A stretch of 64,000 nucleotides of DNA from Verrucomicrobiota bacterium (GCA_038214755.1 JBBQRQ010000003.1:32001-96000), one strand, 5' to 3'. Counted from the first letter of the stretch, positions 10,915-51,355 are shown. Notes: generated from the letters alone by a model not told the origin. Numbers and translations: made by a program.

Positions 10915-11175
10915 GCATCTCACTTTCTTGCAACTTTCTTTCGTCCCGGAGGGGCGTTTGAGAATAGCCCGGCGTTTCAACGCCGGGTTGGCGTTATACA
11001 TTGGAGAAGTCCCGGAGGGACGGCTGAGAGGCGGAGAGGACTCCTTGGCAATCGTTTTTTCAGCCGTCCCTTCGGGACTCGTTCTGTTTCCACCACGATC
11101 CGGCGTTGAAACGCCGGGTTATTTTCGATTGTCGGACAACCGCACTGGCGAACATCTTGCAAAAAATTGAGATGC
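10915..11175. mobile_element. MITE-like composite: outer IR GCATCTCA..TTGCAA enclosing a GTCCCGGAGGGACG-family palindrome array
   Basis: gcatctcactttcttgcaa ... ttgcaaaaaattgagatgc; inner cccggcgtttcaacgccggg and gtcccggagggacggctga / tcagccgtcccttcgggac; related copy at 41700-41972. Confidence 0.72.
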
Positions 11176-22186: not shown

Positions 22187-22420
22187 ATTTGTTTCTGAAA
22201 AGGCTCCACCAGTTTCAGTTTGGAATCTTACCGCTGTTCCGAAGGAACATCTGACCATAGCCCGGCGTTTGAACGCCGGGTTTCATGCGCCAAGATGCCG
22301 AGTCCCGAGGGGACGGCTGAAATCAACTTCACCAATAATATCCCGTTGTCTTTCATCTCGTGATTTTTTGACCACGACGTGAACTCCTTCGAAAATTTTA
22401 TCGATGATGTTGTGCCCGGT
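22187..22420. repeat. ~230-bp repeat copy 1: palindromic end plus degenerate tnpA 3' end
   Basis: Alignable by eye with 25088-25318; minus strand reads KEFTSWSKNHE, resembling EEFTALLKKH of tnpA. Confidence 0.75.
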
Positions 22421-39544: not shown

Positions 39545-40282
39545 CTACAAATTCAAGTCCGCCAGGGTCAAAGATTCGTAACGCGCCAGCCGCGAGGTTT
39601 TTCGCGCGAGCCATCCTAGTTCGACGACTTTATCTTTCACTGCTTCCTTCCAGCCGGCGCGACGCTCTTCTTCCGATGGCACGGACTCAAAAGATTTATT
39701 GGCGATCAAACACCACCATGCCTGCAAAAGAAGATCAGCCATTTCGTCGCGCGAATTTTTTCCTTTGGCCGCTTCACTCAACCATTTGTGCGCGGCGGAC
39801 TCAGCCTCCGTCTGGCTGGCCGCGATGGCGATACCGCCATTTTGGGTTTGATAGGAACCATCGAAATGGAGCCGGACAATCAAATCGTGCTCGGGCGCGA
39901 GACCAATTTCCACCAGCAGCAATTCAACGAGAAACGGCGCGCTGAAGATTTGTTCGAAATTAATTTTAAGTTGCGGGCTTAATCCGAAACTGACCAGGCG
40001 GCGCAGGCTCACATCTTCGGGCGCGCGGGTGAATGCTTCCATGTGCGCGGCGTCGATGGCGGCCTGGCGAATTTTCTCGATGTCAGCAGGATGGCCAAGT
40101 CCGGCCAGCGCGTGACGATCGAACAACTCAAAAACTTTCGATTGGCCGCCGCCGACACCGAGCAGAAGAATTCCGTCGGGCAGACTCGCGGCGAAAACGG
40201 GCGAACCGCCCTTGAGTTGCTCGCGCACGTACTCGCGGCGATTCCCGACTGCTTCCAGCCAACGATATGGTTCTTCGGTCAT
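39545..40282 (-). CDS. prcA: 20S proteasome alpha subunit
   Basis: NRREYVREQLKGGSPV, SKVFELFDR, GHPADIEKIR; position between beta subunit and pafA. Confidence 0.85.
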   Translation of the reverse strand: MTEEPYRWLEAVGNRREYVREQLKGGSPVFAASLPDGILLLGVGGGQSKVFELFDRHALAGLGHPADIEKIRQAAIDAAHMEAFTRAPEDVSLRRLVSFGLSPQLKINFEQIFSAPFLVELLLVEIGLAPEHDLIVRLHFDGSYQTQNGGIAIAASQTEAESAAHKWLSEAAKGKNSRDEMADLLLQAWWCLIANKSFESVPSEEERRAGWKEAVKDKVVELGWLARKTSRLARYESLTLADLNL

Positions 40283-40289
40283 TTGTTAA

Positions 40290-40320
40290 ATTTACGATTT
40301 ACGATTTACGATTTACGATT
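40290..40320. repeat. Tandem heptamer (ATTTACG)x4
   Basis: atttacgatttacgatttacgatttacgatt. Confidence 0.85.
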
Positions 40321-40485
40321 CACGCAGATTTTGCATTCGATCGTAGCGCAGCTTTGCAAGCCGCTGTATCTCCGATTTGCAATCGGCAGGACGCTGGATT
40401 GAGCGACAGCCTACAGGTTGCAAACCTGTGATACGGCAGGTTAAAAACCTGCGCTACGATTTTCACGATTCAACGATTCAACGAT

Positions 40486-41265
40486 TTACGCCGACATTTT
40501 CAAAAATTCTTTCTGCTGTTCTTCCGTGATTGTTTCGACTCCAGTCGGCCGTAAAAGTTTTATCGTCGCAAAAGTTTCCGTCGCCGGATTGACGCCGCCA
40601 GTGGCTGAGTCGAATTCCGACGCGGTCATCAAAATTCGCAACGCGAACTGCACGGCCTGGTTGAGATTCATTTCCGATGGACGCGGGTTGCCGTGACTCT
40701 CTTGAAAACTCAAAATGCTGCGAATCGTTCCTGAGCCAGAGCCGGACGCCGCGTAACCGACCGCTTGAAATTGCGCGCCGAGTGGATCGTAAAAATAAAC
40801 CTGCGGCTTGGCCGGGGAAGCAGCGTGATCGAGTCCCGCGAAAAGCGGGACCACCACTCCCACGCCCTGCATCGTCATCGGCAAGTTGTCGCGCAACAAT
40901 CTGGCCAGCGCGCGGACTTTTGCGGGAAGGCTCAGCGCCTGCAATTGGCTGCGCCGATAATATTCAAAAGAAGTTTGCAGCACGCGCGCCATTTCAAAAG
41001 CTGTCGCCGGAACGCCCGCAATCGCGAGCAACGACGTGGAATCGATCTCAATGATTTTATCAACACGGTCGGTGACGATGACATTGCCTGCCGTCGCTCG
41101 ACGGTCACCCGCCATCAAAATTCCTTCGGCGAAATGAAATGCGAAAACTGTCGTCGCTTGCGTTTGTACGGGAGCGTCGCCGGAAATTTCCGAACGAACG
41201 GGCGACAGTTTGTGCTCGGAGAGAAGCGAAAGAAAATCTCCGGCGATCGAGGCAGTGGGACTCAT
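40486..41265 (-). CDS. prcB: 20S proteasome beta subunit
   Basis: Propeptide then TTVFAF, AGDRRATAG, VDKI, YDPLG, SGSGS, DSATGG. Confidence 0.9.
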   Translation of the reverse strand: MSPTASIAGDFLSLLSEHKLSPVRSEISGDAPVQTQATTVFAFHFAEGILMAGDRRATAGNVIVTDRVDKIIEIDSTSLLAIAGVPATAFEMARVLQTSFEYYRRSQLQALSLPAKVRALARLLRDNLPMTMQGVGVVVPLFAGLDHAASPAKPQVYFYDPLGAQFQAVGYAASGSGSGTIRSILSFQESHGNPRPSEMNLNQAVQFALRILMTASEFDSATGGVNPATETFATIKLLRPTGVETITEEQQKEFLKMSA

Positions 41266-41432
41266 TGGCCGGTGCGTTGCCGATAGCGTTTGGCTTGGTC
41301 GGGATCCACTTTGCGCATTCGTTTCAAAAGTTCTTCGGTGTTGGGCTTCTCGACTTTCGGCGCACTCGGGCCATCGCCGCCACCGCTGGGGCCGGGAGTC
41401 ATCGGTCGGCTTTTTTGTGCTTGGTCGGGCAT
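41262..41432 (-). CDS. ubact: UBact (Pup-analogous protein modifier)
   Basis: 56 aa with disordered Gly/Pro N-terminus, ELLKRMRKVDPDQAKRYRQRTGQ; stop overlaps prcB start. Confidence 0.88.
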   Translation of the reverse strand: MPDQAQKSRPMTPGPSGGGDGPSAPKVEKPNTEELLKRMRKVDPDQAKRYRQRTGQ

Positions 41433-41523
41433 AATTTTTTGATTGGTGTTACGACGAATTGCTAAACCAAATTCGCAGAAAAATTTCATCTGACAAGCGG
41501 GGAAAACAGCGGCGCTCGCAGAG

Positions 41524-42932: not shown

Positions 42933-44300
42933 CTACGCGTCCATCAAAATAAAAGTCACTTCGGCCTCGCTCACCACTTCTCCATCAACCGTGCAAACAC
43001 CTTTCGCTTTCCCGATTTTTCCGCGCGATTTCGTCAGCTCGACTGAGATGGTCAACGTGTCGCCCGGTTTGACAGGCCTTCTCCATTTCACACTGTCGGC
43101 CGCCATGAAATAAGCGAGCTTACCGAAATTTTCCGCGCGCCGCATGGTGAGAATTCCCGCTGCCTGCGCCATCGCTTCGAGCTGCAGCACGCCCGGCATG
43201 ATGGGGTGATTTGGAAAATGCCCCTGAAAATACGGCTCGCCCATCGTCACGTTTTTCACGGCGACGATTTTCGTTTCCTCGATTTGCGTCACGCGATCCA
43301 CCATTAGAAACGGATAGCGATGCGGCAGGACTTTCATCACTTGATTGACGTCCATGCTCGTCGCGCTCAACGCCGCGGTCCAATCTTCTCTCGTCGGCAT
43401 GGGAACGCCTTCGGGCTTCGGCGCGGAGGGCAAGGGAGGGGGCGCGAAAGTCTGCGCGGCGACCAGCGGCTTGCGCATTTGCGCGGTGATTTGCCGGGCG
43501 AGTTCGCAATTGGCGGTGTGACTTGGTTTCACAGCCAACACGTGCCCGGTGATAGGACGACCGATCAAGGAAAGGTCTCCGATGATGTCCAAAATTTTGT
43601 GGCGAACGAATTCATCCGGATAACGCAACGGCTCGGTGGTGAGAATCGCGTCCTCGCGAATGACGACGGCATTTTCCAAACTCCCGCCTTTGATCAAACC
43701 GTTTTTGATGAGAGCTTCGATCTCCTCGAAAAAACAAAACGTGCGAGCATGAGCCAGGTCGCGTTCCCAGGTTTCCGGCGAAAGTTCGACGCTGAAAAAT
43801 TGGGAGAACCGCCCCTTTTTGTCGGCGCTGGTGCAACTGATTTTAAAACGGTCATGTGGAAAAATCGCGATGACCGATTCCTCATTCTCCAGTTCGATAG
43901 GCGTGTGAATCTGAAAAGTTTCACGTTGCGCGCCCTGCGGAACGACGCCGGCGGCGTGAATGATTTTCACGTAATCGCGCGCGCTGCCGTCGCCAACCGG
44001 CGGCTCATTCGCGTCCAGTTCAACGATGGCATTGTCAATCCCGCGACCAGCGAAGGCCGCGAGCACGTGTTCGACGGTGTGAATTTTCGCGTTGCCCTTG
44101 AAAAGCGAAGTAGAGCGGTTGGTCGTGCTGACATTTTCGATGCGCGCTTCAATTTCCGGTTTGCCTTCGAGATCGAGTCGGCGAAAGCGAATTCCGCCAT
44201 CCGGCGGCGCAGGCAAAAAAGTCATGTTGACGCGATTGCCACTGTGCAAACCGATCCCGGAAAAACTCGCGGGTTGCCGCAGGGTTTGTTGCTGTAACAC
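42933..44300 (-). CDS. lpxC-fabZ: Bifunctional LpxC deacetylase / FabZ dehydratase
   Basis: GIGLHSG, TVEHVLAA, ARTF, RHKILDIIGDL; then LPHRYPFLMVD, GHFP..PIMPGVLQLEAMAQ; GTG start inferred. Confidence 0.95.
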   Translation of the reverse strand: MLQQQTLRQPASFSGIGLHSGNRVNMTFLPAPPDGGIRFRRLDLEGKPEIEARIENVSTTNRSTSLFKGNAKIHTVEHVLAAFAGRGIDNAIVELDANEPPVGDGSARDYVKIIHAAGVVPQGAQRETFQIHTPIELENEESVIAIFPHDRFKISCTSADKKGRFSQFFSVELSPETWERDLAHARTFCFFEEIEALIKNGLIKGGSLENAVVIREDAILTTEPLRYPDEFVRHKILDIIGDLSLIGRPITGHVLAVKPSHTANCELARQITAQMRKPLVAAQTFAPPPLPSAPKPEGVPMPTREDWTAALSATSMDVNQVMKVLPHRYPFLMVDRVTQIEETKIVAVKNVTMGEPYFQGHFPNHPIMPGVLQLEAMAQAAGILTMRRAENFGKLAYFMAADSVKWRRPVKPGDTLTISVELTKSRGKIGKAKGVCTVDGEVVSEAEVTFILMDA

Positions 44301-44403
44301 TCGCGCATTAGAGCAATCGAAAAGTTCATTGGCAAGCGAGCAGTGCCCGGACTGCGGGCAAAGAAAATCCAAGCGAAGCTTGTTCGGCGGAAACGCCGAT
44401 GCG

Positions 44404-47322
44404 ATGCTTAAGCTAGTGAACTTTTTGGGATTTTTTAAAAACTGTCTGGGAATTTTCTTTCTGGCTGTTTGTCTTTCGTCATTCAATTTATATGGCGGAA
44501 TCATCCTCGTTAATTCAACCGCTCCGATGGGAGGAACCGGCCAGAGTTGGGCGACCGCGTTTTCGAAAATTCGAGAAGCGATAAATTCTTCCGCAGCCCA
44601 CGATGAGATTTGGGTTGCCGCCGGAGTTTATCAGGAAAATCTGCTTCTTCACGAAGGCATTATTCTCTTCGGCGGCTTTTCAGGAGTAGAAACAAATCGT
44701 TCAGAACGCGATTGGAATATTCATTCCACCGTCATTGATGGGCGCAATCTCGGCCCTGTGCTCAACTTGCCCTTTCACACTTCAATCCCGACTCGGCTCG
44801 ACGGCTTTGTGATTCAAAAGGGCCGCGCAGATTTTGGCGCGGGAATTTATTCTGCGGGTGGAGAATTTATCTCCGCCAATAATTTGATAATTCACAATAG
44901 CGGAGACGGAATTTTTGGCGGTGGCGGTCTGTTCGTGGATGAAACCGCGCAACTGGCAAACGGGTCTCCGATTACTTTTTTCACAAATGTCGCGAGCCAA
45001 CTTCTCCGACTCCATTCGCCTGGACTGAGCGCGGAGCGAATTCAGGTTTTCCCGACTAACTGTTACTCGCCCGAAGTGCATCGCCTGCTTCAACTCGCGG
45101 CCAACATTTACGATGCGACGACAAATCGCGGGAGCAGTTATCCCTTCTATCCGTCCGTTTTTCGTCCGCTCTTTACCAACGAAAGCGGAAATATTTTTAT
45201 TTCCGGTTATGTAGAGGCCAGCAATACCAACTTTCTCGAGAATCAATGGCTCGACGTTTCGACACCGGCAGACCGCCAACTCTTGAGCAATCCCTCCATC
45301 GCATCGAATGCGAACATCTACGGACAACCGATCACCATCGGGACGAAAAAAGGTTTTCCGAATTTCAACGAGTTTTCGATGGAAACAATTTCACAGATCA
45401 CCCGTTCATTGGAATTGCGCAAACCCACGACGAATTCAATTTCAAATGAAACCAACCAAATGTATTCGCTGATGTTCTCGAATGTGTTCGGTGTGGAAAC
45501 GTGGAATTCTTATCCGCAAATATTCGCCCGCCCTTTGGAGTTGCATGTCTCGCATAAATTCGCCGCATGGATTACCGACGAAACGGGTGCAACGATTTGG
45601 CCGACGAGTGGAGTGTGTTTCACGACTAATTTTTCCCCCGTCCCGATGATCGTTTCAAACTGGCCAGGCTTTTTTCTTTCAAGTTCAAATTCTTTCGTCC
45701 TTCCCTACTTCACGAATATTTTCACGCTTCCGCTTTCTCAATATCTAAGTGCTTCTCCGCATTTTCAGATCGCCCCATCGAGTGTTGGCTTCGAAAGATT
45801 TGTCGGTTTTCCGGTGCCCCAGTGGAAGTTGCATCTAAAAAATCGAATTCAATACTGGGCGACAGACGCGGAACGAGTCGTGGATTTTGTAAACCTGGGC
45901 GAGCAGGTAACTGAGATTGATCTAACGCGGGAATTGTTTGATCCCTTTCTCTACTCTTCGCCCGTGATTGCTGGAATGTGGGCTACCAATCGGTTAAACG
46001 GTTCTATTAATTCTGGCGTGCCGACTCTTGGCATACTTAAACAAATGGTTGTAGCTCTCGGCCAAATTGCCGTGAACGATTCGGACTGGTATTCCTTCAA
46101 TGCCACTGCCGGGCCGAATAAGGATCAAGCCATATCAGTGTTTCGGAAGTTCATGGGCTTCACACCATTTCCGCCGTATCAAAATATTCCGATGCCAACG
46201 AACCTGACGATGCAAGCGCCATTTGCTCCGACGCTAAAAATTTATCATCGCGCAAGTGTGGGAGCGAATGATCCGATCATTCATTTTCTCCTCGAGGATT
46301 TGAAAGATGAGACCCTCTCGAGCGTCACTCTCGCGATGGTCCCTCCATCTTCTCCGCAGCCCAACTCAAATCTCCGCCGTCTTAACGAACGGTATCGGCC
46401 TTACGGATTCAGTGCGGACTATTCTTACGATCCTTCATTCGAGGACGAGGGCATTCACCATTCGAGAGACTGGGATTTTCCCACCAACAATTTGTTTAAT
46501 CTGCAATGGCTTGATCGCGTGCATCGAGGAACACCGTGGCAAACCATTTACACCGGCTTCGATTCCTCTTTATTGAACAACGCCAAAATGGCCGAGTGGT
46601 TGGTTTGGTCTGGAAGCCGGGAAACCTATCCGACAAACGATTGGAAAATTGCGGAATTACTTTTGAACGAACGGGCGAATTTGGGAACGACCGTCTCAAA
46701 CGGTTCCCCCGCTTTCGTGAACAACACATTTGCGGCAAATACGGGAATCAATGGCGCGGCCGCTTCATTCGCTGGTCCGGCATCTTTTGTGAACAATATC
46801 GTCGCTGAAAATTCTTCCGGCTTATTTCGTCTTTCCACGACAAACGAAGTCATTTTTCAAACGAACTGCGTCTTCAACAACGTCCACTATAATTTTTTAA
46901 ATCTCAGCGGCGGCTCAGGAAATATTGCGGCAAGTCCGCAGTTTGTTTCGGCAGGAACCGACAACTTTCATTTGTTGGCGACTTCCCCATGCATTGATGG
47001 GGGCAGCGCTGATGCTTTTACTTCGGGTTGGCTGTTGAACGATTCCGCGCGCATGCAAGGGGCAGGAATTGATCTTGGGGCATTTGAACTCAGTTCGTTG
47101 GATAGTCCCGTGGTCACTTCCCCAACGATTTCTCCTGTGTCGAATCAATTCACATTTCAAGTAACCGGATTTACCGGCGAACGGTATGTCGTTGAAATCT
47201 CCAACGATCTGATTCAGTGGATGCCGCTTTCAACAAATGTGACCACCAATGGTTTTTTCCAGATCAATGACGCAGTGAGCGTTGCATCAAATCGTTTTTA
47301 TCGAGCCGTCCGCGCGCCTTAG
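44404..47322 (+). CDS. Large secreted protein: beta-helix-like regions with a large central domain, choice-of-anchor-Q-like and C-terminal verrucomicrobial domain
   Basis: Signal peptide; G.SWATAF..I..A..EIWVAAGVY, LFGGFSG.E; FHLLATSPCIDGG, IDLGAFE; YVVEISNDL..W..RFYRAV. Confidence 0.8.
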   Translation: MLKLVNFLGFFKNCLGIFFLAVCLSSFNLYGGIILVNSTAPMGGTGQSWATAFSKIREAINSSAAHDEIWVAAGVYQENLLLHEGIILFGGFSGVETNRSERDWNIHSTVIDGRNLGPVLNLPFHTSIPTRLDGFVIQKGRADFGAGIYSAGGEFISANNLIIHNSGDGIFGGGGLFVDETAQLANGSPITFFTNVASQLLRLHSPGLSAERIQVFPTNCYSPEVHRLLQLAANIYDATTNRGSSYPFYPSVFRPLFTNESGNIFISGYVEASNTNFLENQWLDVSTPADRQLLSNPSIASNANIYGQPITIGTKKGFPNFNEFSMETISQITRSLELRKPTTNSISNETNQMYSLMFSNVFGVETWNSYPQIFARPLELHVSHKFAAWITDETGATIWPTSGVCFTTNFSPVPMIVSNWPGFFLSSSNSFVLPYFTNIFTLPLSQYLSASPHFQIAPSSVGFERFVGFPVPQWKLHLKNRIQYWATDAERVVDFVNLGEQVTEIDLTRELFDPFLYSSPVIAGMWATNRLNGSINSGVPTLGILKQMVVALGQIAVNDSDWYSFNATAGPNKDQAISVFRKFMGFTPFPPYQNIPMPTNLTMQAPFAPTLKIYHRASVGANDPIIHFLLEDLKDETLSSVTLAMVPPSSPQPNSNLRRLNERYRPYGFSADYSYDPSFEDEGIHHSRDWDFPTNNLFNLQWLDRVHRGTPWQTIYTGFDSSLLNNAKMAEWLVWSGSRETYPTNDWKIAELLLNERANLGTTVSNGSPAFVNNTFAANTGINGAAASFAGPASFVNNIVAENSSGLFRLSTTNEVIFQTNCVFNNVHYNFLNLSGGSGNIAASPQFVSAGTDNFHLLATSPCIDGGSADAFTSGWLLNDSARMQGAGIDLGAFELSSLDSPVVTSPTISPVSNQFTFQVTGFTGERYVVEISNDLIQWMPLSTNVTTNGFFQINDAVSVASNRFYRAVRAP

Positions 47323-47409
47323 TTTGTTCCCGAATTACCCCCATTTACCCATGCGAAATTATTTTTGCTCGCCAGCTTGAGCAACTCATCACGCTTTTTT
47401 TCTCACCTC

Positions 47410-48280
47410 GCAAAGTAAATGTCCCTGTCCAACCTTGCGGTCAAACAGGGACAAAAATGGGGATGGGAGTTCGCCACTCTCTCTTTCCCGCGCTGACATT
47501 TGGCGCCAAATTGGCTGCCAGCTTCCCGACGCCATTCTCCACGGCAAGCGGAGTTTTTCTCGGCCTCATAGCAGGGCCGTCCAGCGCTTTGCAGCGTCTG
47601 AATTTTTGAGTGAGGCCTCTTGGCTCGCTTGGGCTGGCGTTTGCGGACGCCAACTCGCGAACCGGGTGAAGACACGTTTGTGATTTGCGTATCCGCGTCT
47701 TCACCATTTGCCCTGGGTCGGCCATCGCTTTTGACGATGCGTTGCCCCAGTGCCACGGGTCTGACCTCTTACCTCTCAGGTTGCCTTTCGCTCACAAGTC
47801 AGCGGCGTCGTTTTTAACACCGCCGACGTTTTGGAAGTTTGACGAGCCTTGCCTGGGCTTCGTTTCCTTGCCGGTGCGCGCGCTCATTTTGTTGCGTCTT
47901 TCGACGTTTTTCGTTTGGCAGATTTTGTTTTGCAAAACCGCCAGAGTCGCTCGCTCCGTGCTGGCGCACAGTAGCAACCGTTTACCCTCCGGGTAACTGC
48001 GATTCGCTCAAACTCGAAACGGGTTTGAACTACTTGACTCGGCTCGAAACGGTTTCTAATCGCCTCTCGCCGCTCAGTTCCTTCTTCGCGTTACTGGCAC
48101 GCGCGAACGTGTCAGAGGAACTGGTGAATCCTGCCTCCATTTTTGAATCTTGCGATTCGAACCTGGAGGGGTTGAGCCAACCAGCCTGACTCGACCTTTC
48201 CCCGGTCGCCCGGGATTATCCTTGAGACGCCTTGCAATTTCTTTCGTTCTCACCGGCCATCTCAGCTCTTTCAATGAACT
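47410..48280 (-). ncRNA. Candidate large (~870 nt) structured non-coding RNA of unknown family
   Basis: No credible ORF; more than 15 consecutive hairpins; GCAA/GAAA loops and G-U pairs mostly favour the minus strand; A-rich linkers; promoter-like motif upstream and terminator downstream. Confidence 0.7.
47411..47453 (-). terminator. Terminal hairpin / intrinsic terminator of the candidate RNA
   Basis: UGUCCCUGUUUGACC-GCAA-GGUUGGACAGGGACA (15 bp, 3 G-U) followed by UUUACUUU. Confidence 0.7.
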
Positions 48281-48314
48281 GCGAACATCCTAATGAATTT
48301 TTAAAATATTTCTA
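48269..48314 (-). promoter_or_regulatory. Putative sigma70-type promoter followed by boxA-like motif
   Basis: TAGAAA-16 nt-TAGGAT in an AT-rich context, then GTTCATTGAAA. Confidence 0.4.
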
Positions 48315-48563
48315 CGAATTCTTATGCACAGGCTTATTCGCTGAATCGTTTCGACGGAGGATTTGAAAACGACTGAAGCGTCGAGGAGGAAGAGCGCACA
48401 AACCGTTTTAAATTTTTGTTATTCACCAAAAAAATCTTCGGGATTTACCGAGGGTGAATAAGTTTTTTTGCGGAGAGAATTACTTTTCAAAGTTTTTTCG
48501 GCCACAACCTCTTTGTAGCTGCGTCTCGTAAGAGCGCGGATTAAACCAATCGCCATTTCTTAA

Positions 48564-48814
48564 CCGTAACTATTCAGCGGAGAAAGTTGCTCGCCCTCAC
48601 CCTACCCTCTCCCCCGAGGAGAGGGAATAGTATCAGCGTTTCTCGAAAGTTAGAAAGCTCGAGGTGTCATTGCCGCCTCTTCATCAATCGACGAAAAACG
48701 GACAGAAGAATCCGGTGACTTCGTTTTTACATAAGCGCGGCAAACGTTTCTCCCTCTCCTCGGAGGAGAGGGCCGGGGTGAGGTCGAGCGTTTCTTTTTT
48801 ACTGAATGGTTCGG
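48564..48814. mobile_element. MITE-like composite with CCCTCACCC..CCCTCTCC REP-like core
   Basis: Outer ccgtaactattcag / ctgaatggttcgg; inner ccctcaccctaccctctcc / ggagagggccggggtgagg. Confidence 0.65.
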
Positions 48815-48856
48815 GCTTCAAGCGGGTGACGCTGCAATTCAGTAAACGCCTCTTTT

Positions 48857-48935
48857 CAACGCAGAGGTCGCAAAGGTTCTCGCAGAGGAGCGCAGAGAAA
48901 CAACCTTTGCGTCCTCTGCGACAACCTCTGTGCCC
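48857..48935. repeat. CGCAGAG/CTCTGCG short-repeat inverted cluster
   Basis: cgcagaggtcgcaaaggttctcgcagaggagcgcagag ... ctttgcgtcctctgcgacaacctctgtg. Confidence 0.65.
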
Positions 48936-48971
48936 GCTGCCTTGAAACCGGTTGGAAACACACGACTGCGC

Positions 48972-50333
48972 CTACATCTTCGCAATGATGTTGTCGCCAA
49001 ACTCGGAGCATTTAATTTCGGTCGCGCCTTCCATCTGTCGCGCGAAATCGTAGGTGACGCGCTTGGAAGCAATCGCGCCATTGAGTCCTTTGATGATGAG
49101 ATCGGCGGCTTCGGTCCAGCCCATGTATCGCAACATCATTTCGCCGGAAAGAACGACTGAGCCGGGATTGACGCGGTCTTGATTCGCATATTTCGGGGCG
49201 GTGCCGTGCGTCGCTTCGAAAATGGCGTGACCGGTGACGTAATTGATATTCCCGCCGGGTGCGATGCCAATTCCACCGACCTGCGCGGCGAGCGCATCGC
49301 TCAAATAATCGCCATTCAAATTCAACGTGGCGATGACATCAAACTCTTCCGGTCGCGTAAGAACCTGCTGCAAGACGATGTCGGCGATGGCGTCTTTGAT
49401 GAGCACCGCGCCATTCTTCAAAGCGGCTTTCTGTTCATCATTGGCGGCGGCTTCACCTTTTTCCTTTTTGGTTTTTTCCCATTTTGCCCAGGTATAAACT
49501 TTGTCGCCGAAAATCCGTTCCGCGGCGGAATAACCCCAATCACGAAATGCGCCTTCGGTATATTTCATGATGTTTCCTTTGTGAACGATGGTGACGCTTT
49601 TGCGTTTGAACTTCAGCGCGTATTCGACGGCCGCTTTGACCAGACGAATCGTGCCGATATTTGAAACGGGTTTGATACCAATGCCGACTTGCACAGGAAT
49701 GTGCGAAGTGTCGTGATCCGGCGAAGCGAGTTTCATGTACTCGGCGATTTTCTCTTTGGTGCCAAAACGAATTTTGCTGAAATCCTTTGGAAATTCCTTG
49801 GCGAGAAAGCCCAAAACCTTTTGCGCTTCGGGCGAACCTCCGACGTATTCGATGCCCGCGTAAATGTCTTCCGTGTTCTCGCGGAAGATGGTCATGTCCA
49901 CTTTTTCGGGATGTTTCACGGGCGAGGGAACGCCGGTAAAATATTGCACCGGGCGCAGGCAAACATAGAGATCAAGCATTTGGCGCAAGGCCACATTAAG
50001 CGAGCGAATGCCTCCGCCAACCGGCGTGGTCAGCGGGCCTTTGATGCCGACGAGAAATTCCTTGAAGGCTTCAACAGTATCATCGGGCAGCCAGTTATTA
50101 AATTTTTTGAAAGAAGTTTCGCCAGCGAAAACTTCAAACCAGGAAATTCTTTTGTTGCCGCCGTAAGCTTTGAGAACCGCAGCGTTAAAAACGCGTTCGC
50201 TGGCCGCCCAAATATCCGGCCCAGTGCCGTCACCGCGAATGAATGGGATAACGGGATTTTCGGGAACGTTCAGCTTGCCGTTGGCGATGGTGATTTTATT
50301 TCCGGCGGGCGGGGTGATGTTTTGGTAGGGCAT
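48972..50333 (-). CDS. icd: NADP-dependent isocitrate dehydrogenase
   Basis: [62 protein letters not shown]. Confidence 0.97.
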
Positions 50334-50426: not shown

Positions 50427-50774
50427 GTGACGCTGGAACTGATCGATTTGGACACGCTCAAGGAAGCAGCCATCAAAAAGTTTGACGCCTCGGTTGCGCA
50501 CCAGGCGGAGGGAGGTTCCATGGATCGAGAGGTGGCCCAACTTCAGGCGGAATTTGAGCAAATTTATCGAGTCGTCGTGTTGCTTCAGAAGAATGAACCA
50601 AATATGGAGCGAGTGGCAGAGATCTGGAGCAAAATGGTCACAGTCTGCGATGAATTCGCGCGACGGCTTTCCGACTGGGCCGGAAAACATCCCGCCTCCC
50701 GCGCGCCCTATGATCGAATTCTGGACATGCGCAATGCAGCGGAGGAGCGTTACCAACTCCACCGGCGCGCATGA
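50427..50774 (+). CDS. Hypothetical helical protein
   Basis: 115-aa ORF coupled (ATGA) to the next ORF. Confidence 0.6.
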   Translation: MTLELIDLDTLKEAAIKKFDASVAHQAEGGSMDREVAQLQAEFEQIYRVVVLLQKNEPNMERVAEIWSKMVTVCDEFARRLSDWAGKHPASRAPYDRILDMRNAAEERYQLHRRA

Positions 50775-50989
50775 TTCCAGCCGGGCAAATCGCGCGGCTC
50801 GCCGAACTCTACGACCGCTACAATAATGCGCTTGACCCGGTTTCCCGCGATTGCAAGGAAGCTAAACTGGAATTTGACGAATTGGCGGACAGCCTGTTCG
50901 CGACTCATGCCTCGGATGTAAAATTCATCGACTTTCGTTACGAGCTTGTCTCGCGTTGTCGGGAATATTTGCGAAAGAATCGGGCGTGA
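50771..50989 (+). CDS. Hypothetical small protein
   Basis: 72-aa ORF overlapping the previous stop. Confidence 0.6.
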   Translation: MIPAGQIARLAELYDRYNNALDPVSRDCKEAKLEFDELADSLFATHASDVKFIDFRYELVSRCREYLRKNRA

Positions 50990-51112
50990 AGTTTGAGCGG
51001 GACTATCCTTGCAACGCACCGGAGAATATTTTTACCGACATAACTGCGACAAATTCTTCGAGCTGCTTCTTCCGCATCAGAGTGGAGTAATTGCGGGAAT
51101 TCAAAAGACGAC

Positions 51113-51355
51113 TTAAGCCGGCTTGCGCGTTCTGCGCGAAAGCATTTCCACGCGGCCAACGTGTTCGTAGGGAATTAGATTCAAACCGCCAGGGACGCCT
51201 TCGGGTAATTCGGTAGCGACGACGATCATATCGGAGCCAACGAGGATGAAATCCGGATGCGGGACCCGCAAAGTTTTACCATTGGCCAGATGCAATCGAA
51301 ATGGCTTGAAGGGCCTGGTCCGAACCCGGTCGCGCACTTCTTTCGGCGTGAACAT
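51113..51355 (-). CDS. Small hypothetical protein (RPFxPFRLHLxxG type)
   Basis: RPFKPFRLHLANGKTLRVPHPDF, a pattern recalled from PVC-group small proteins. Confidence 0.7.
   Translation of the reverse strand: MFTPKEVRDRVRTRPFKPFRLHLANGKTLRVPHPDFILVGSDMIVVATELPEGVPGGLNLIPYEHVGRVEMLSRRTRKPA

What the first reader, a model, noticed from the sequence alone, without database searches (positions are those of the whole stretch)
47410..48314. Candidate undescribed ~870-nt highly structured non-coding RNA with its own promoter and terminator
Seen: the interval has no credible ORF, and the minus strand reads as back-to-back stems. Examples are CCUCCA/UGGAGG enclosing GAAUC-GCAA-GAUUC, CAGUUCCU/AGGAACUG, UUACCC-GGA-GGGUAA, CGUC-GAAA-GACG, GUCGGCGGUGUU/GACGCCGCUGAC, GGUGAAGACGCG/CGUGUCUUCACC, GGUUCGC/GCGAGCC enclosing UUGGCGU/ACGCCAG, GGCCUCA/UGAGGCC enclosing CGCU-GCAA-AGCG, and a 15-bp GCAA-capped terminal stem plus U-tract. 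Most imperfect pairs are G-U on the minus strand (A-C on plus), loops are often GNRA and linkers are A-rich. That pattern fits selection on RNA structure and differs from the repeated DNA palindromes elsewhere in the window. Upstream lie TAGAAA-N16-TAGGAT and a GTTCATTGAAA motif resembling rrn boxA. Known: large bacterial ncRNAs of this size class exist (GOLLD, ROOL, OLE). I do not recognise the hallmarks of RNase P, tmRNA, rRNA or group I/II introns. Inference: an independently transcribed large RNA of unknown function.
Basis: partly seen in the sequence, partly recalled or inferred. Interest (0 to 1): 0.92.

Follow-up and report, generated by a model that had tools for sequence, protein, structure and literature searches.

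The report
Known MISL RNA gene, DnaA boxes
The flagged stretch is a gene for MISL RNA, a large folded non-coding RNA of Verrucomicrobiota that is already catalogued but has no known job; its promoter is preceded by conserved sites that look like binding sites for the replication initiator DnaA.

Summary
Window 48221-47466 (minus strand) is a full-length Rfam MISL RNA (RF03079; model 1-751/751, 597 bits against a cut-off of 274.6). It is single-copy here and over cut-off in 33 of 61 related genomes. Folding (z -9.0 minus strand, -4.5 plus strand), compensatory changes in 83 homologues and unconserved ORFs support a non-coding RNA.

Homologues also conserve parts outside the Rfam match: a sigma-70-type promoter, a 5' boxA-like word matching rrn leaders of related genomes, a covarying 5' stem-loop, a terminator, and an upstream array of DnaA-box-like 9-mers (88 in 27 loci, against 15 in shuffles and 8 and 4 at 30 RNase P and 30 tmRNA loci). 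A matrix from those boxes also picks out the dnaA and dnaB promoters. The array is not oriC in one complete chromosome.

Best reading: a dispensable, stand-alone, DnaA-regulated structural RNA; its role is inferred, not shown. This scan has reported MISL before on other genomes (23 findings), DnaA boxes and boxA included.

The parts
48453..48461 (-). DnaA-box-like 9-mer, distal (TTATTCACC, 1 mismatch to TTWTNCACA)
   Evidence: Position about -184 from the 5' motif recurs across homologues
48419..48427 (-). DnaA-box-like 9-mer, opposite orientation (GGTGAATAA)
   Evidence: Position about -149 recurs in many homologues
48334..48342 (-). Degenerate DnaA-box-like 9-mer, first of a tandem pair (2 mismatches here; GGTGAATAA-like in most homologues)
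48322..48330 (-). DnaA box, perfect match to the reverse complement of TTWTNCACA, ending 7 nt upstream of the -35 hexamer
   Evidence: Position -51 in most order-level homologues; consensus from PMC13438810
48309..48314 (-). -35 hexamer (TAGAAA here; TTGTCG-like consensus in homologues)
   Evidence: Column profile of 28 homologues
48287..48292 (-). -10 hexamer (TAGGAT; consensus TAnnnT, often with an upstream TG); predicted start about 48280
   Evidence: start site inferred from spacing
48265..48279 (-). 5' boxA-like word GUUCAUUGAAAG, which can also close a 4-5 bp hairpin GUUC/GARC; outside the Rfam match
   Evidence: Present in 28 of 28 order-level loci with upstream DNA; rrn boxA of related genomes GCTCWTTGARA and GTTCTTTGAMA; hairpin pairs kept in 81-83 of 83 without compensatory change
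48223..48264 (-). 5' stem-loop with GAAA-type loop, outside the Rfam match
   Evidence: Closing stem paired in 70-79 of 83, with compensatory changes in 34-50 sequences at 4 of 5 pairs
47466..48221 (-). MISL RNA core (Rfam RF03079), full length
   Evidence: 597.2 bits, gathering 274.6, E 7.4e-181, model 1-751/751
47678..47797 (-). Pseudoknot-type helix UUGUGA (47797-47792) with the loop UCACAA (47683-47678); not in the nested Rfam structure line
   Evidence: 78-83 of 83 paired per position, compensatory changes in 23, 33 and 33 sequences at three pairs
47779..47979 (-). Long-range pairing GGUUGC (47979-47974) with GCAACC (47784-47779)
   Evidence: 83 of 83 paired at all 6 positions, only 1-2 compensatory sequences at three pairs; weakly supported
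48016..48056 (-). Candidate kissing loop GAAAC (48056-48052) with GUUUC (48020-48016)
   Evidence: 82-83 of 83 paired, no compensatory change; conservation alone could explain it
47459..47465 (-). Conserved 3' CAUCCCC-like tail after the Rfam end
47412..47453 (-). Intrinsic terminator (15-pair stem, GCAA loop, T-rich tail)
   Evidence: a similar hairpin follows all 30 order-level loci shown (read by eye)
48972..50333 (-). Upstream neighbour: NADP-dependent isocitrate dehydrogenase (not part of the unit)
   Evidence: NCBIfam NF005425, TIGR00183 over cut-off; among the Pfam hits Iso_dh appears only for this locus
44092..47322 (+). Convergent downstream neighbour: 1076-aa choice-of-anchor Q protein (not part of the unit)

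Best explanation
This is the single chromosomal gene for MISL RNA. Shown by sequence comparison: identity, full length, conserved fold, non-coding character, own promoter and terminator. Inferred: (1) RNA polymerase starts at about 48280 and stops at the hairpin near 47413, giving about 868 nt, some 58 nt longer at the 5' end than the Rfam model. (2) DnaA binds the 9-mer array and tunes this promoter; the last box ends 7 nt before the -35 hexamer, so output would follow DnaA level or nucleotide state, as described for E. coli nrdAB and dnaA. (3) The first 12 nt act as boxA, loading NusB-S10 so that a long untranslated RNA escapes Rho, as rRNA does. (4) The product is a stable, compactly folded RNA (pseudoknot, candidate kissing loop, GNRA loops) that works as a structural scaffold or protein-binding platform, alone or as an oligomer, in an accessory growth- or replication-linked role that many lineages have lost. 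My odds: identity 0.99, stand-alone transcript 0.9, DnaA binding 0.8, boxA function 0.55, scaffold role 0.45.
For: Rfam match. Single copy. Covariation. Conserved promoter columns and 5' word. DnaA-box counts in the 200 nt upstream: 88 in 27 order-level loci against 15.0 +/- 3.4 in shuffles, 8 in 30 RNase P and 4 in 30 tmRNA upstream regions; 88 in 29 Opitutaceae-type loci against 6.8 and 78 in 27 further loci against 11.5. A matrix trained without this genome ranks the dnaA promoter first of 11 tandem pairs in G000 and also finds one before dnaB. The array follows MISL, not its usual neighbour gene. boxA-like word: rrn leaders of 7 of 7 genomes carry GCTCWTTGARA, 0 of 30 RNase P and 0 of 30 tmRNA loci carry the word, and G000 encodes NusB- and Rho-domain proteins. 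Contigs from 4 of 4 metatranscriptomes laid cover 47406-48314, the 5' extension included. boxA and DnaA mechanisms from PMC13753749 and PMC13438810.
Against: No binding, start site, strand or level was measured. The RNA contigs come from relatives, were chosen for holding this stretch and may include DNA. With the strict E. coli box TTATCCACA the upstream region ranks only 275 of 5,748 clusters in G000; its first rank with the lineage matrix is partly circular because the matrix came from MISL promoters of kin. Most of the other 8 tandem hits have no evident replication link. The 5' word drifts from rrn boxA in Opitutaceae-type copies (GTTCCTTGATAG) while its hairpin stays intact, and a paired boxA would be a poor NusB site. 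In the mutual-information scan only 2 canonical pairs beat the highest non-canonical score and 17 beat the fifth; counts are sequences, not events, and many values near 30 reflect one split between two lineages. No partner protein co-occurs: the usual neighbour gene is in 61 of 61 genomes, MISL in 36. Step 4 has no direct evidence.
Confidence: 0.5

Rival explanations
1. The DnaA-box array works at the DNA level as a datA-like or DnaA-box-cluster titration site, with MISL transcription changing its occupancy; the RNA's own role is separate.
For: Four to six boxes in both orientations over 90-185 bp, more than one tandem pair needs; top cluster in G000 with the lineage matrix and in a 460-kb stretch of G120, above the dnaA promoter. 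datA and B. subtilis clusters are described in PMC13438810.
Against: The proximal boxes hold a fixed distance to the -35 hexamer. The array is missing at the usual locus when MISL is absent or has moved. In G120 the locus is far from the skew-defined origin. Most boxes carry mismatches (23 perfect of 88). An IHF site was not tested.
Confidence: 0.15
2. MISL is an RNA-only homo-oligomer or nanocage like ROOL and GOLLD, storing or enclosing cargo.
For: Similar size; a covarying pseudoknot-type helix and a candidate kissing loop could be intermolecular; such contacts build the ROOL and GOLLD cages (PMC12286853 passages); no dedicated partner gene among flank Pfam hits.
Against: No sequence or model match to those families; no tRNA in 29 of 29 loci within 1.5 kb and no phage-type Pfam hit in 106 flanking frames, unlike ROOL and GOLLD; 285 of 797 columns are at least 95% conserved, which fits ligand or protein contacts as well.
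Confidence: 0.2
3. MISL is a ribozyme or ligand-binding RNA, perhaps a domesticated intron or RNase P-like element.
For: 152 invariant columns of 797, many in single-stranded segments; long-range contacts suggest a compact core. In one genome (G049) MISL lies directly upstream of rnpB.
Against: No match to group I or II intron, RNase P or other ribozyme models at gathering score; the genome has its own RNase P, tmRNA and 6S genes elsewhere; no reverse transcriptase or nuclease among flank Pfam hits; one copy with its own promoter and terminator.
Confidence: 0.12
4. The upstream array is the chromosomal origin oriC and MISL transcription assists initiation.
For: Densest lineage-type box cluster found; this genome's dnaA lies on another contig, so oriC is not pinned.
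Against: In the single-contig genome G120 GC skew changes sign near 0/4.32 Mb and near 2.1 Mb, not at MISL (2.448 Mb; 40 stretches of 20 kb sampled); no clear switch on G000 contig C3; MISL not found in 5 of 5 well-assembled relatives re-searched at E up to 1, nor the array at their usual locus where checked.
Confidence: 0.02
5. The region is a cis-regulatory leader or terminator-side element of a neighbouring gene, or codes for a small protein.
For: A PALP-family gene follows on the same strand in 4 of 27 loci scanned; ORFs of up to 117 aa overlap.
Against: Here the downstream gene is convergent; neighbours vary widely; a strong terminator closes the unit; ORFs stay open in at most 8 of 82 homologues.
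Confidence: 0.01

Closest known systems
MISL RNA (Rfam RF03079, typed 'Gene; sRNA')
   Same: Full-length match, 597 bits, same nested structure; Verrucomicrobiota distribution by record titles of homologues. That it comes from Weinberg et al. 2017 (PMC5737381) is recalled: the word MISL is not in that paper's main text and its supplement could not be read.
   Different: The transcription unit extends about 58 nt 5' of the model (boxA-like word plus covarying stem-loop) and about 50 nt 3' (C-rich tail, terminator). The DnaA-box array and the UUGUGA/UCACAA pseudoknot are not in the structure line printed by cmscan; Rfam's seed alignment or the paper's supplement may already draw them.
ROOL, GOLLD and OLE large ornate RNAs
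   Same: Size class, dense helices, candidate kissing loops and pseudoknots, unknown or partly known function (PMC12286853 passages).
   Different: No model match; no tRNA or phage context found; single-copy chromosomal gene with DnaA boxes.
rrn leader boxA (Nus-factor antitermination)
   Same: 5' word differs by 1-2 bases from rrn boxA of related genomes; in three rrn leaders a similar word also follows the upstream promoter directly.
   Different: In MISL the word is closed by a conserved GARC arm into a possible hairpin; rrn leaders carry no DnaA array (at most 3 scattered one-mismatch hits in 600 nt).
DnaA-regulated promoters (E. coli dnaA and nrdAB, P. aeruginosa gidAB-parAB)
   Same: Several 9-mers matching TTWTNCACA just upstream of a promoter, tandem pairs 11-12 bp apart.
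   Different: The target is a non-coding RNA gene; the lineage box prefers TTATTCACC/A; binding is untested.

Membership tests
MISL RNA (RF03079) | Covariance-model score above the gathering threshold | tested here: met
   597.2 bits against 274.6
MISL RNA (RF03079) | Full-length match with the consensus helices | tested here: met
   Model 1-751/751, not truncated; compensatory changes in own alignment
MISL RNA (RF03079) | Host in Verrucomicrobiota (recalled as the family's range) | tested here: inconclusive
   G000 is unnamed; most record titles of homologues name Verrucomicrobiota, 5 of the 80 shown name other groups
ROOL / GOLLD / OLE | Match to their Rfam models | tested here: not met
   Only MISL and two Acido-Lenti-1 hits in the window
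ROOL / GOLLD | Prophage or tRNA-island context | tested here: not met
   0 tRNA genes in 29 of 29 loci, 1.5-kb flanks only; no phage-type Pfam hit in 106 frames
ROOL / GOLLD | RNA-only oligomer or cage | not testable with these tools
   Needs mass photometry or cryo-EM
RNase P RNA / tmRNA / 6S RNA | Model match; role not already filled by another gene | tested here: not met
   No match at this place; own copies on C122, C17 and C16
Group I / group II intron | Model match, insertion in a host gene, linked RT or endonuclease | tested here: not met
   intergenic with its own terminator
boxA antitermination element | Sequence like the lineage's rrn boxA, near the 5' end of an untranslated RNA | tested here: met
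   weaker in Opitutaceae-type copies; G000's own rrn is not assembled
boxA antitermination element | NusB and Rho encoded | tested here: met
   PF01029 and PF07497 over cut-off
boxA antitermination element | Binds NusB-S10 and blocks Rho | not testable with these tools
   The competing hairpin reading stays open
DnaA-regulated promoter | Enriched, positionally conserved TTWTNCACA-like boxes | tested here: met
DnaA-regulated promoter | Same motif at the lineage's dnaA promoter | tested here: met
   Top tandem hit in G000; seen upstream of dnaA in 6 genomes (read by eye)
DnaA-regulated promoter | DnaA binding changes transcription | not testable with these tools
   Needs EMSA, footprint or reporter
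oriC | At the GC-skew switch of the chromosome | tested here: not met
   G120, one genome
datA-type site | IHF site plus titration of DnaA | not tested
   IHF motif not scanned; titration needs experiments

The most novel reading that the evidence does not exclude
MISL is a large, stable RNA whose gene belongs to the DnaA regulon beside dnaA and dnaB, is transcribed with rRNA-style antitermination, and folds through pseudoknots and kissing loops into a particle that links the replication cycle or growth state to an unknown RNA-based function in two orders of Verrucomicrobiota. That would make it a large orphan ncRNA wired directly to the replication initiator, and possibly a feedback regulator of initiation.
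Probability: 0.25. Interest if true: 0.7.

Novelty: already known. Interest (0 to 1): 0.24.

Why it matters
As a discovery of a new RNA class it does not matter: the family is in Rfam and this scan has met it many times. What is useful is that MISL has no functional study in the papers I could search, and the conserved signals outside the Rfam match give concrete tests: the correct construct boundaries (about 868 nt rather than 756), a candidate regulator (DnaA), a candidate antitermination signal and a covarying tertiary contact. If DnaA control is real, it narrows the search for the function of one of the largest orphan bacterial RNAs to replication or growth.

Tried and rejected
oriC reading: rejected on GC skew in G120 and no clear switch on G000 C3.
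Strict E. coli DnaA box scan: the region did not stand out (rank 275 of 5,748).
Dedicated partner protein: the divergent SecDF_P1_head-domain gene sits next to MISL in 17 of 30 order-level loci and in none of 8 more distant loci, but it is in 61 of 61 genomes with or without MISL and unlinked in G000 (C56), so it is a synteny neighbour, not a partner.
Boxes belonging to that neighbour gene: no array upstream of it in the 15 genomes where MISL is absent, partial or elsewhere and at least 600 nt were available, 0-2 scattered hits each; one locus had only 106 nt; G007 shows an array at a contig end where its MISL is cut.
Protein coding: rejected. tRNA or prophage context: not found. Internal repeats: only short chance-level pairs inside the RNA.
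The bins without cover upstream and downstream of the RNA prove nothing about ends, because those flanks are not conserved; depth was not used to rank genes.
rrn boxA of G000 itself could not be read (no 16S assembled).
Literature: 'MISL RNA' occurs in one work only, as a figure example (Ribonanza); other searches gave nothing relevant. The Harris and Breaker review of large ncRNAs is not held.

Full report
Identity. A gathering-threshold scan of the whole window against 4,227 Rfam families gave three hits: MISL RNA (RF03079) at 48221-47466 on the minus strand, model positions 1-751 of 751, 597.2 bits against a cut-off of 274.6, E 7.4e-181, and two Acido-Lenti-1 repeats elsewhere. The gene is single-copy in this genome. 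Among 61 relatives 36 have a match and 33 pass the cut-off; among the 44 well-assembled ones 26 match. In a phylum-wide sample 9 of 151 match, 6 of them in one family. Five well-assembled relatives, one a single contig, gave nothing at E up to 1 (the tool warns that a blank does not prove absence), so MISL looks patchy and dispensable.

Observation. The stems, promoter hexamers and terminator quoted are in the sequence. The minus strand folds far better than shuffles (z -9.0) and better than the plus strand (z -4.5; 20 shuffles each). I aligned 83 distinct units from the 5' word to just past the model end. They came from 153 candidate loci (28, 125): 60 were dropped for short flanks or a missing anchor, and 10 as duplicates or as the unpublished genome. 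Mean identity is 69.5%, and 152 of 797 columns are invariant. Many helices show compensatory changes. The mutual-information scan was modest: 17 canonical pairs beat the fifth-highest non-canonical score and 2 beat the highest. Counts are sequences, not events, and the split between Limisphaerales-type and Opitutaceae-type copies drives many of them. One reader helix, GGCCUCA/UGAGGCC, has no compensatory change and conflicts with CGGCC/GGCCG. Eight overlapping ORFs are open in 3-8 of 82 homologues.

Parts outside the Rfam match. In 28 of 30 order-level loci (the other two lack upstream DNA) a near-invariant GTTCWTTGAAAGARC lies 55-62 nt before the model start, preceded at fixed distance by TAnnnT and a TTGTCG-like -35. 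Between this word and the model start is a stem-loop with compensatory changes in 34-50 of 83 sequences at four of five closing pairs. After the model end come a C-rich tail and a terminator. The inferred transcript runs from about 48280 to about 47413. Inside the core, UUGUGA (47797-47792) pairs with the loop UCACAA (47683-47678) with compensatory changes in 23, 33 and 33 sequences; it crosses the long-range stem that Rfam draws, so it is a pseudoknot. GGUUGC/GCAACC and GAAAC/GUUUC are fully complementary but nearly invariant, so weakly supported. I could not see Rfam's seed alignment or the 2017 supplement, which may already show these features.

boxA. rrn leaders from 7 of 7 related genomes carry GCTCWTTGARA 119-142 nt before 16S, and all 5 fetched 16S-23S spacers carry GTTCTTTGAMA. 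The MISL word differs from these by one or two bases. It occurs at 0 of 30 RNase P and 0 of 30 tmRNA loci. G000 encodes NusB- and Rho-domain proteins. PMC13753749 (passages) gives the E. coli and B. subtilis consensus and the NusB-S10 mechanism. Against: in 29 Opitutaceae-type copies the word reads GTTCCTTGATAGAAC while their family's rrn boxA stays GCTCTTTGAAA, and GUUC/GARC can pair in 81-83 of 83 sequences. The word may be a boxA, a 5' protective hairpin, or both in turn.

DnaA boxes. Nine-mers within one mismatch of TTWTNCACA (consensus in PMC13438810, passages) recur near -184, -149, -63 and -51 from the 5' word. In 200 nt upstream there are 88 in 27 loci (one locus too short) against 15.0 +/- 3.4 in 30 shuffles; RNase P and tmRNA upstream regions hold 8 and 4 in 30 each, no more than shuffles. 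Opitutaceae-type loci hold 88 in 29 against 6.8, and 27 further loci 78 against 11.5. Kin are not independent, so these are not formal tests. A weight matrix from 82 boxes of other genomes finds 11 tandem pairs in G000: the best is the dnaA promoter, the fourth is MISL, the ninth precedes dnaB; the third precedes a protein with a weak NUDIX hit and the rest were not all identified. MISL's upstream region is the top cluster with this matrix, which is partly circular, and only 275 of 5,748 with the strict E. coli box. The array travels with MISL: upstream of its usual neighbour gene there is no array where MISL is absent or elsewhere, and here, where the neighbour is icd instead, the boxes are kept. 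It is not oriC in the one complete chromosome tested: skew flips near 0 and 2.1 Mb, MISL lies at 2.448 Mb.

Expression. Twenty-four runs hold a small share of the stretch. In the four laid, from four studies, hundreds to thousands of contigs at 80% identity or more cover every bin from 47406 to 48314; contigs in X4 and X6 lie on 48230-48250, inside the 5' extension. These are relatives' sequences in RNA libraries; contigs show neither strand, ends nor level, and DNA carry-over is not excluded.

Context. Neighbours vary (106 frames from 27 loci). A SecDF_P1_head-domain gene is divergent upstream in 17 of 30 order-level loci but is universal in the order. No tRNA lies within 1.5 kb in 29 loci. 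The genome has separate RNase P, tmRNA and 6S genes.

How it most likely works. Shown: a conserved, non-coding, self-contained gene with a defined fold. Inferred: DnaA tunes its promoter; a 5' boxA recruits Nus factors so the long untranslated RNA survives Rho; the RNA folds into a compact particle that serves as a scaffold or binding platform in an accessory, growth- or replication-linked role (0.5 overall). Rivals: RNA-only oligomer like ROOL and GOLLD (0.2; comparison from passages of PMC12286853), DNA-level DnaA titration (0.15), ribozyme or ligand binder (0.12), oriC (0.02), cis element or small protein (0.01).

Literature and novelty. 'MISL RNA' appears in the searchable library only in Ribonanza, as a figure example from Rfam (listing and two passages). 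Searches pairing MISL with Verrucomicrobia, GOLLD, noncoding RNA, the large-RNA cryo-EM terms, the accession and the recalled full name found no study of it. Weinberg et al. 2017 was seen as passages only; MISL is not in its main text and the attribution is recalled. Most subscription papers are outside the library. This scan holds 23 earlier findings with the words MISL RNA in at least 18 genomes, several already noting DnaA boxes and the rRNA-style leader; my reading was written down before I looked. Tallies include the unpublished genome G009; no conclusion depends on it.

Verdict. Real feature, already known family, function open. Interest 0.24, carried by the testable DnaA and boxA leads rather than by this copy.

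Noticed in passing
window 39545-41489 (-): UBact (NF033388 over cut-off) followed by bacterial proteasome beta- and alpha-like genes (below their cut-offs): a UBact-proteasome operon.
   Followed up: partly
window 10942-10987 and 22235-22280 (-): Two Acido-Lenti-1 RNA matches just over the gathering score.
   Followed up: no
window 48600-48947: Palindromic repeat elements between icd and the MISL promoter: inverted arms 48600-48626/48751-48777 and 48854-48889/48912-48947; REP-like DNA repeats, distinct from the RNA.
   Followed up: partly
window 50427-51355 (-): Three small ORFs (115, 72, 80 aa) upstream of icd with no NCBIfam hit.
   Followed up: partly
G120:C1: dnaA (2.293 Mb) lies near the skew-defined terminus side, about 2 Mb from the skew-defined origin, and a short stretch near 2.59-2.63 Mb has reversed skew.
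   Followed up: no
G000 C83:8900 and C147:6190: Tandem DnaA-box-like pairs upstream of dnaB and of a gene with a weak NUDIX hit: a possible small DnaA regulon.
   Followed up: partly
G049:C7:15013-16266: MISL lies 90 nt upstream of the RNase P RNA gene on the same strand; not seen in the other genomes listed.
   Followed up: no
L059, L064, L081, L085, L087: Record titles name Dongiaceae, Saccharimonadales and Bifidobacteriaceae, yet the loci are Limisphaerales-type MISL units; mislabelled titles or misbinned contigs are likelier than transfer.
   Followed up: no
L043, L068, L116; G045; G025: Expanded or divergent MISL copies: longer 5' halves in L043, L068 and L116, an 844-nt match in G045 and a 214-bit full-length match below cut-off in G025.
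   Followed up: no
G000 C16:58385-59746: DnaA's DNA-binding signature reads GGRDHGTVLHA; the E. coli motif, recalled, has T at that G, which might explain the lineage preference for TTATTCACC/A.
   Followed up: no
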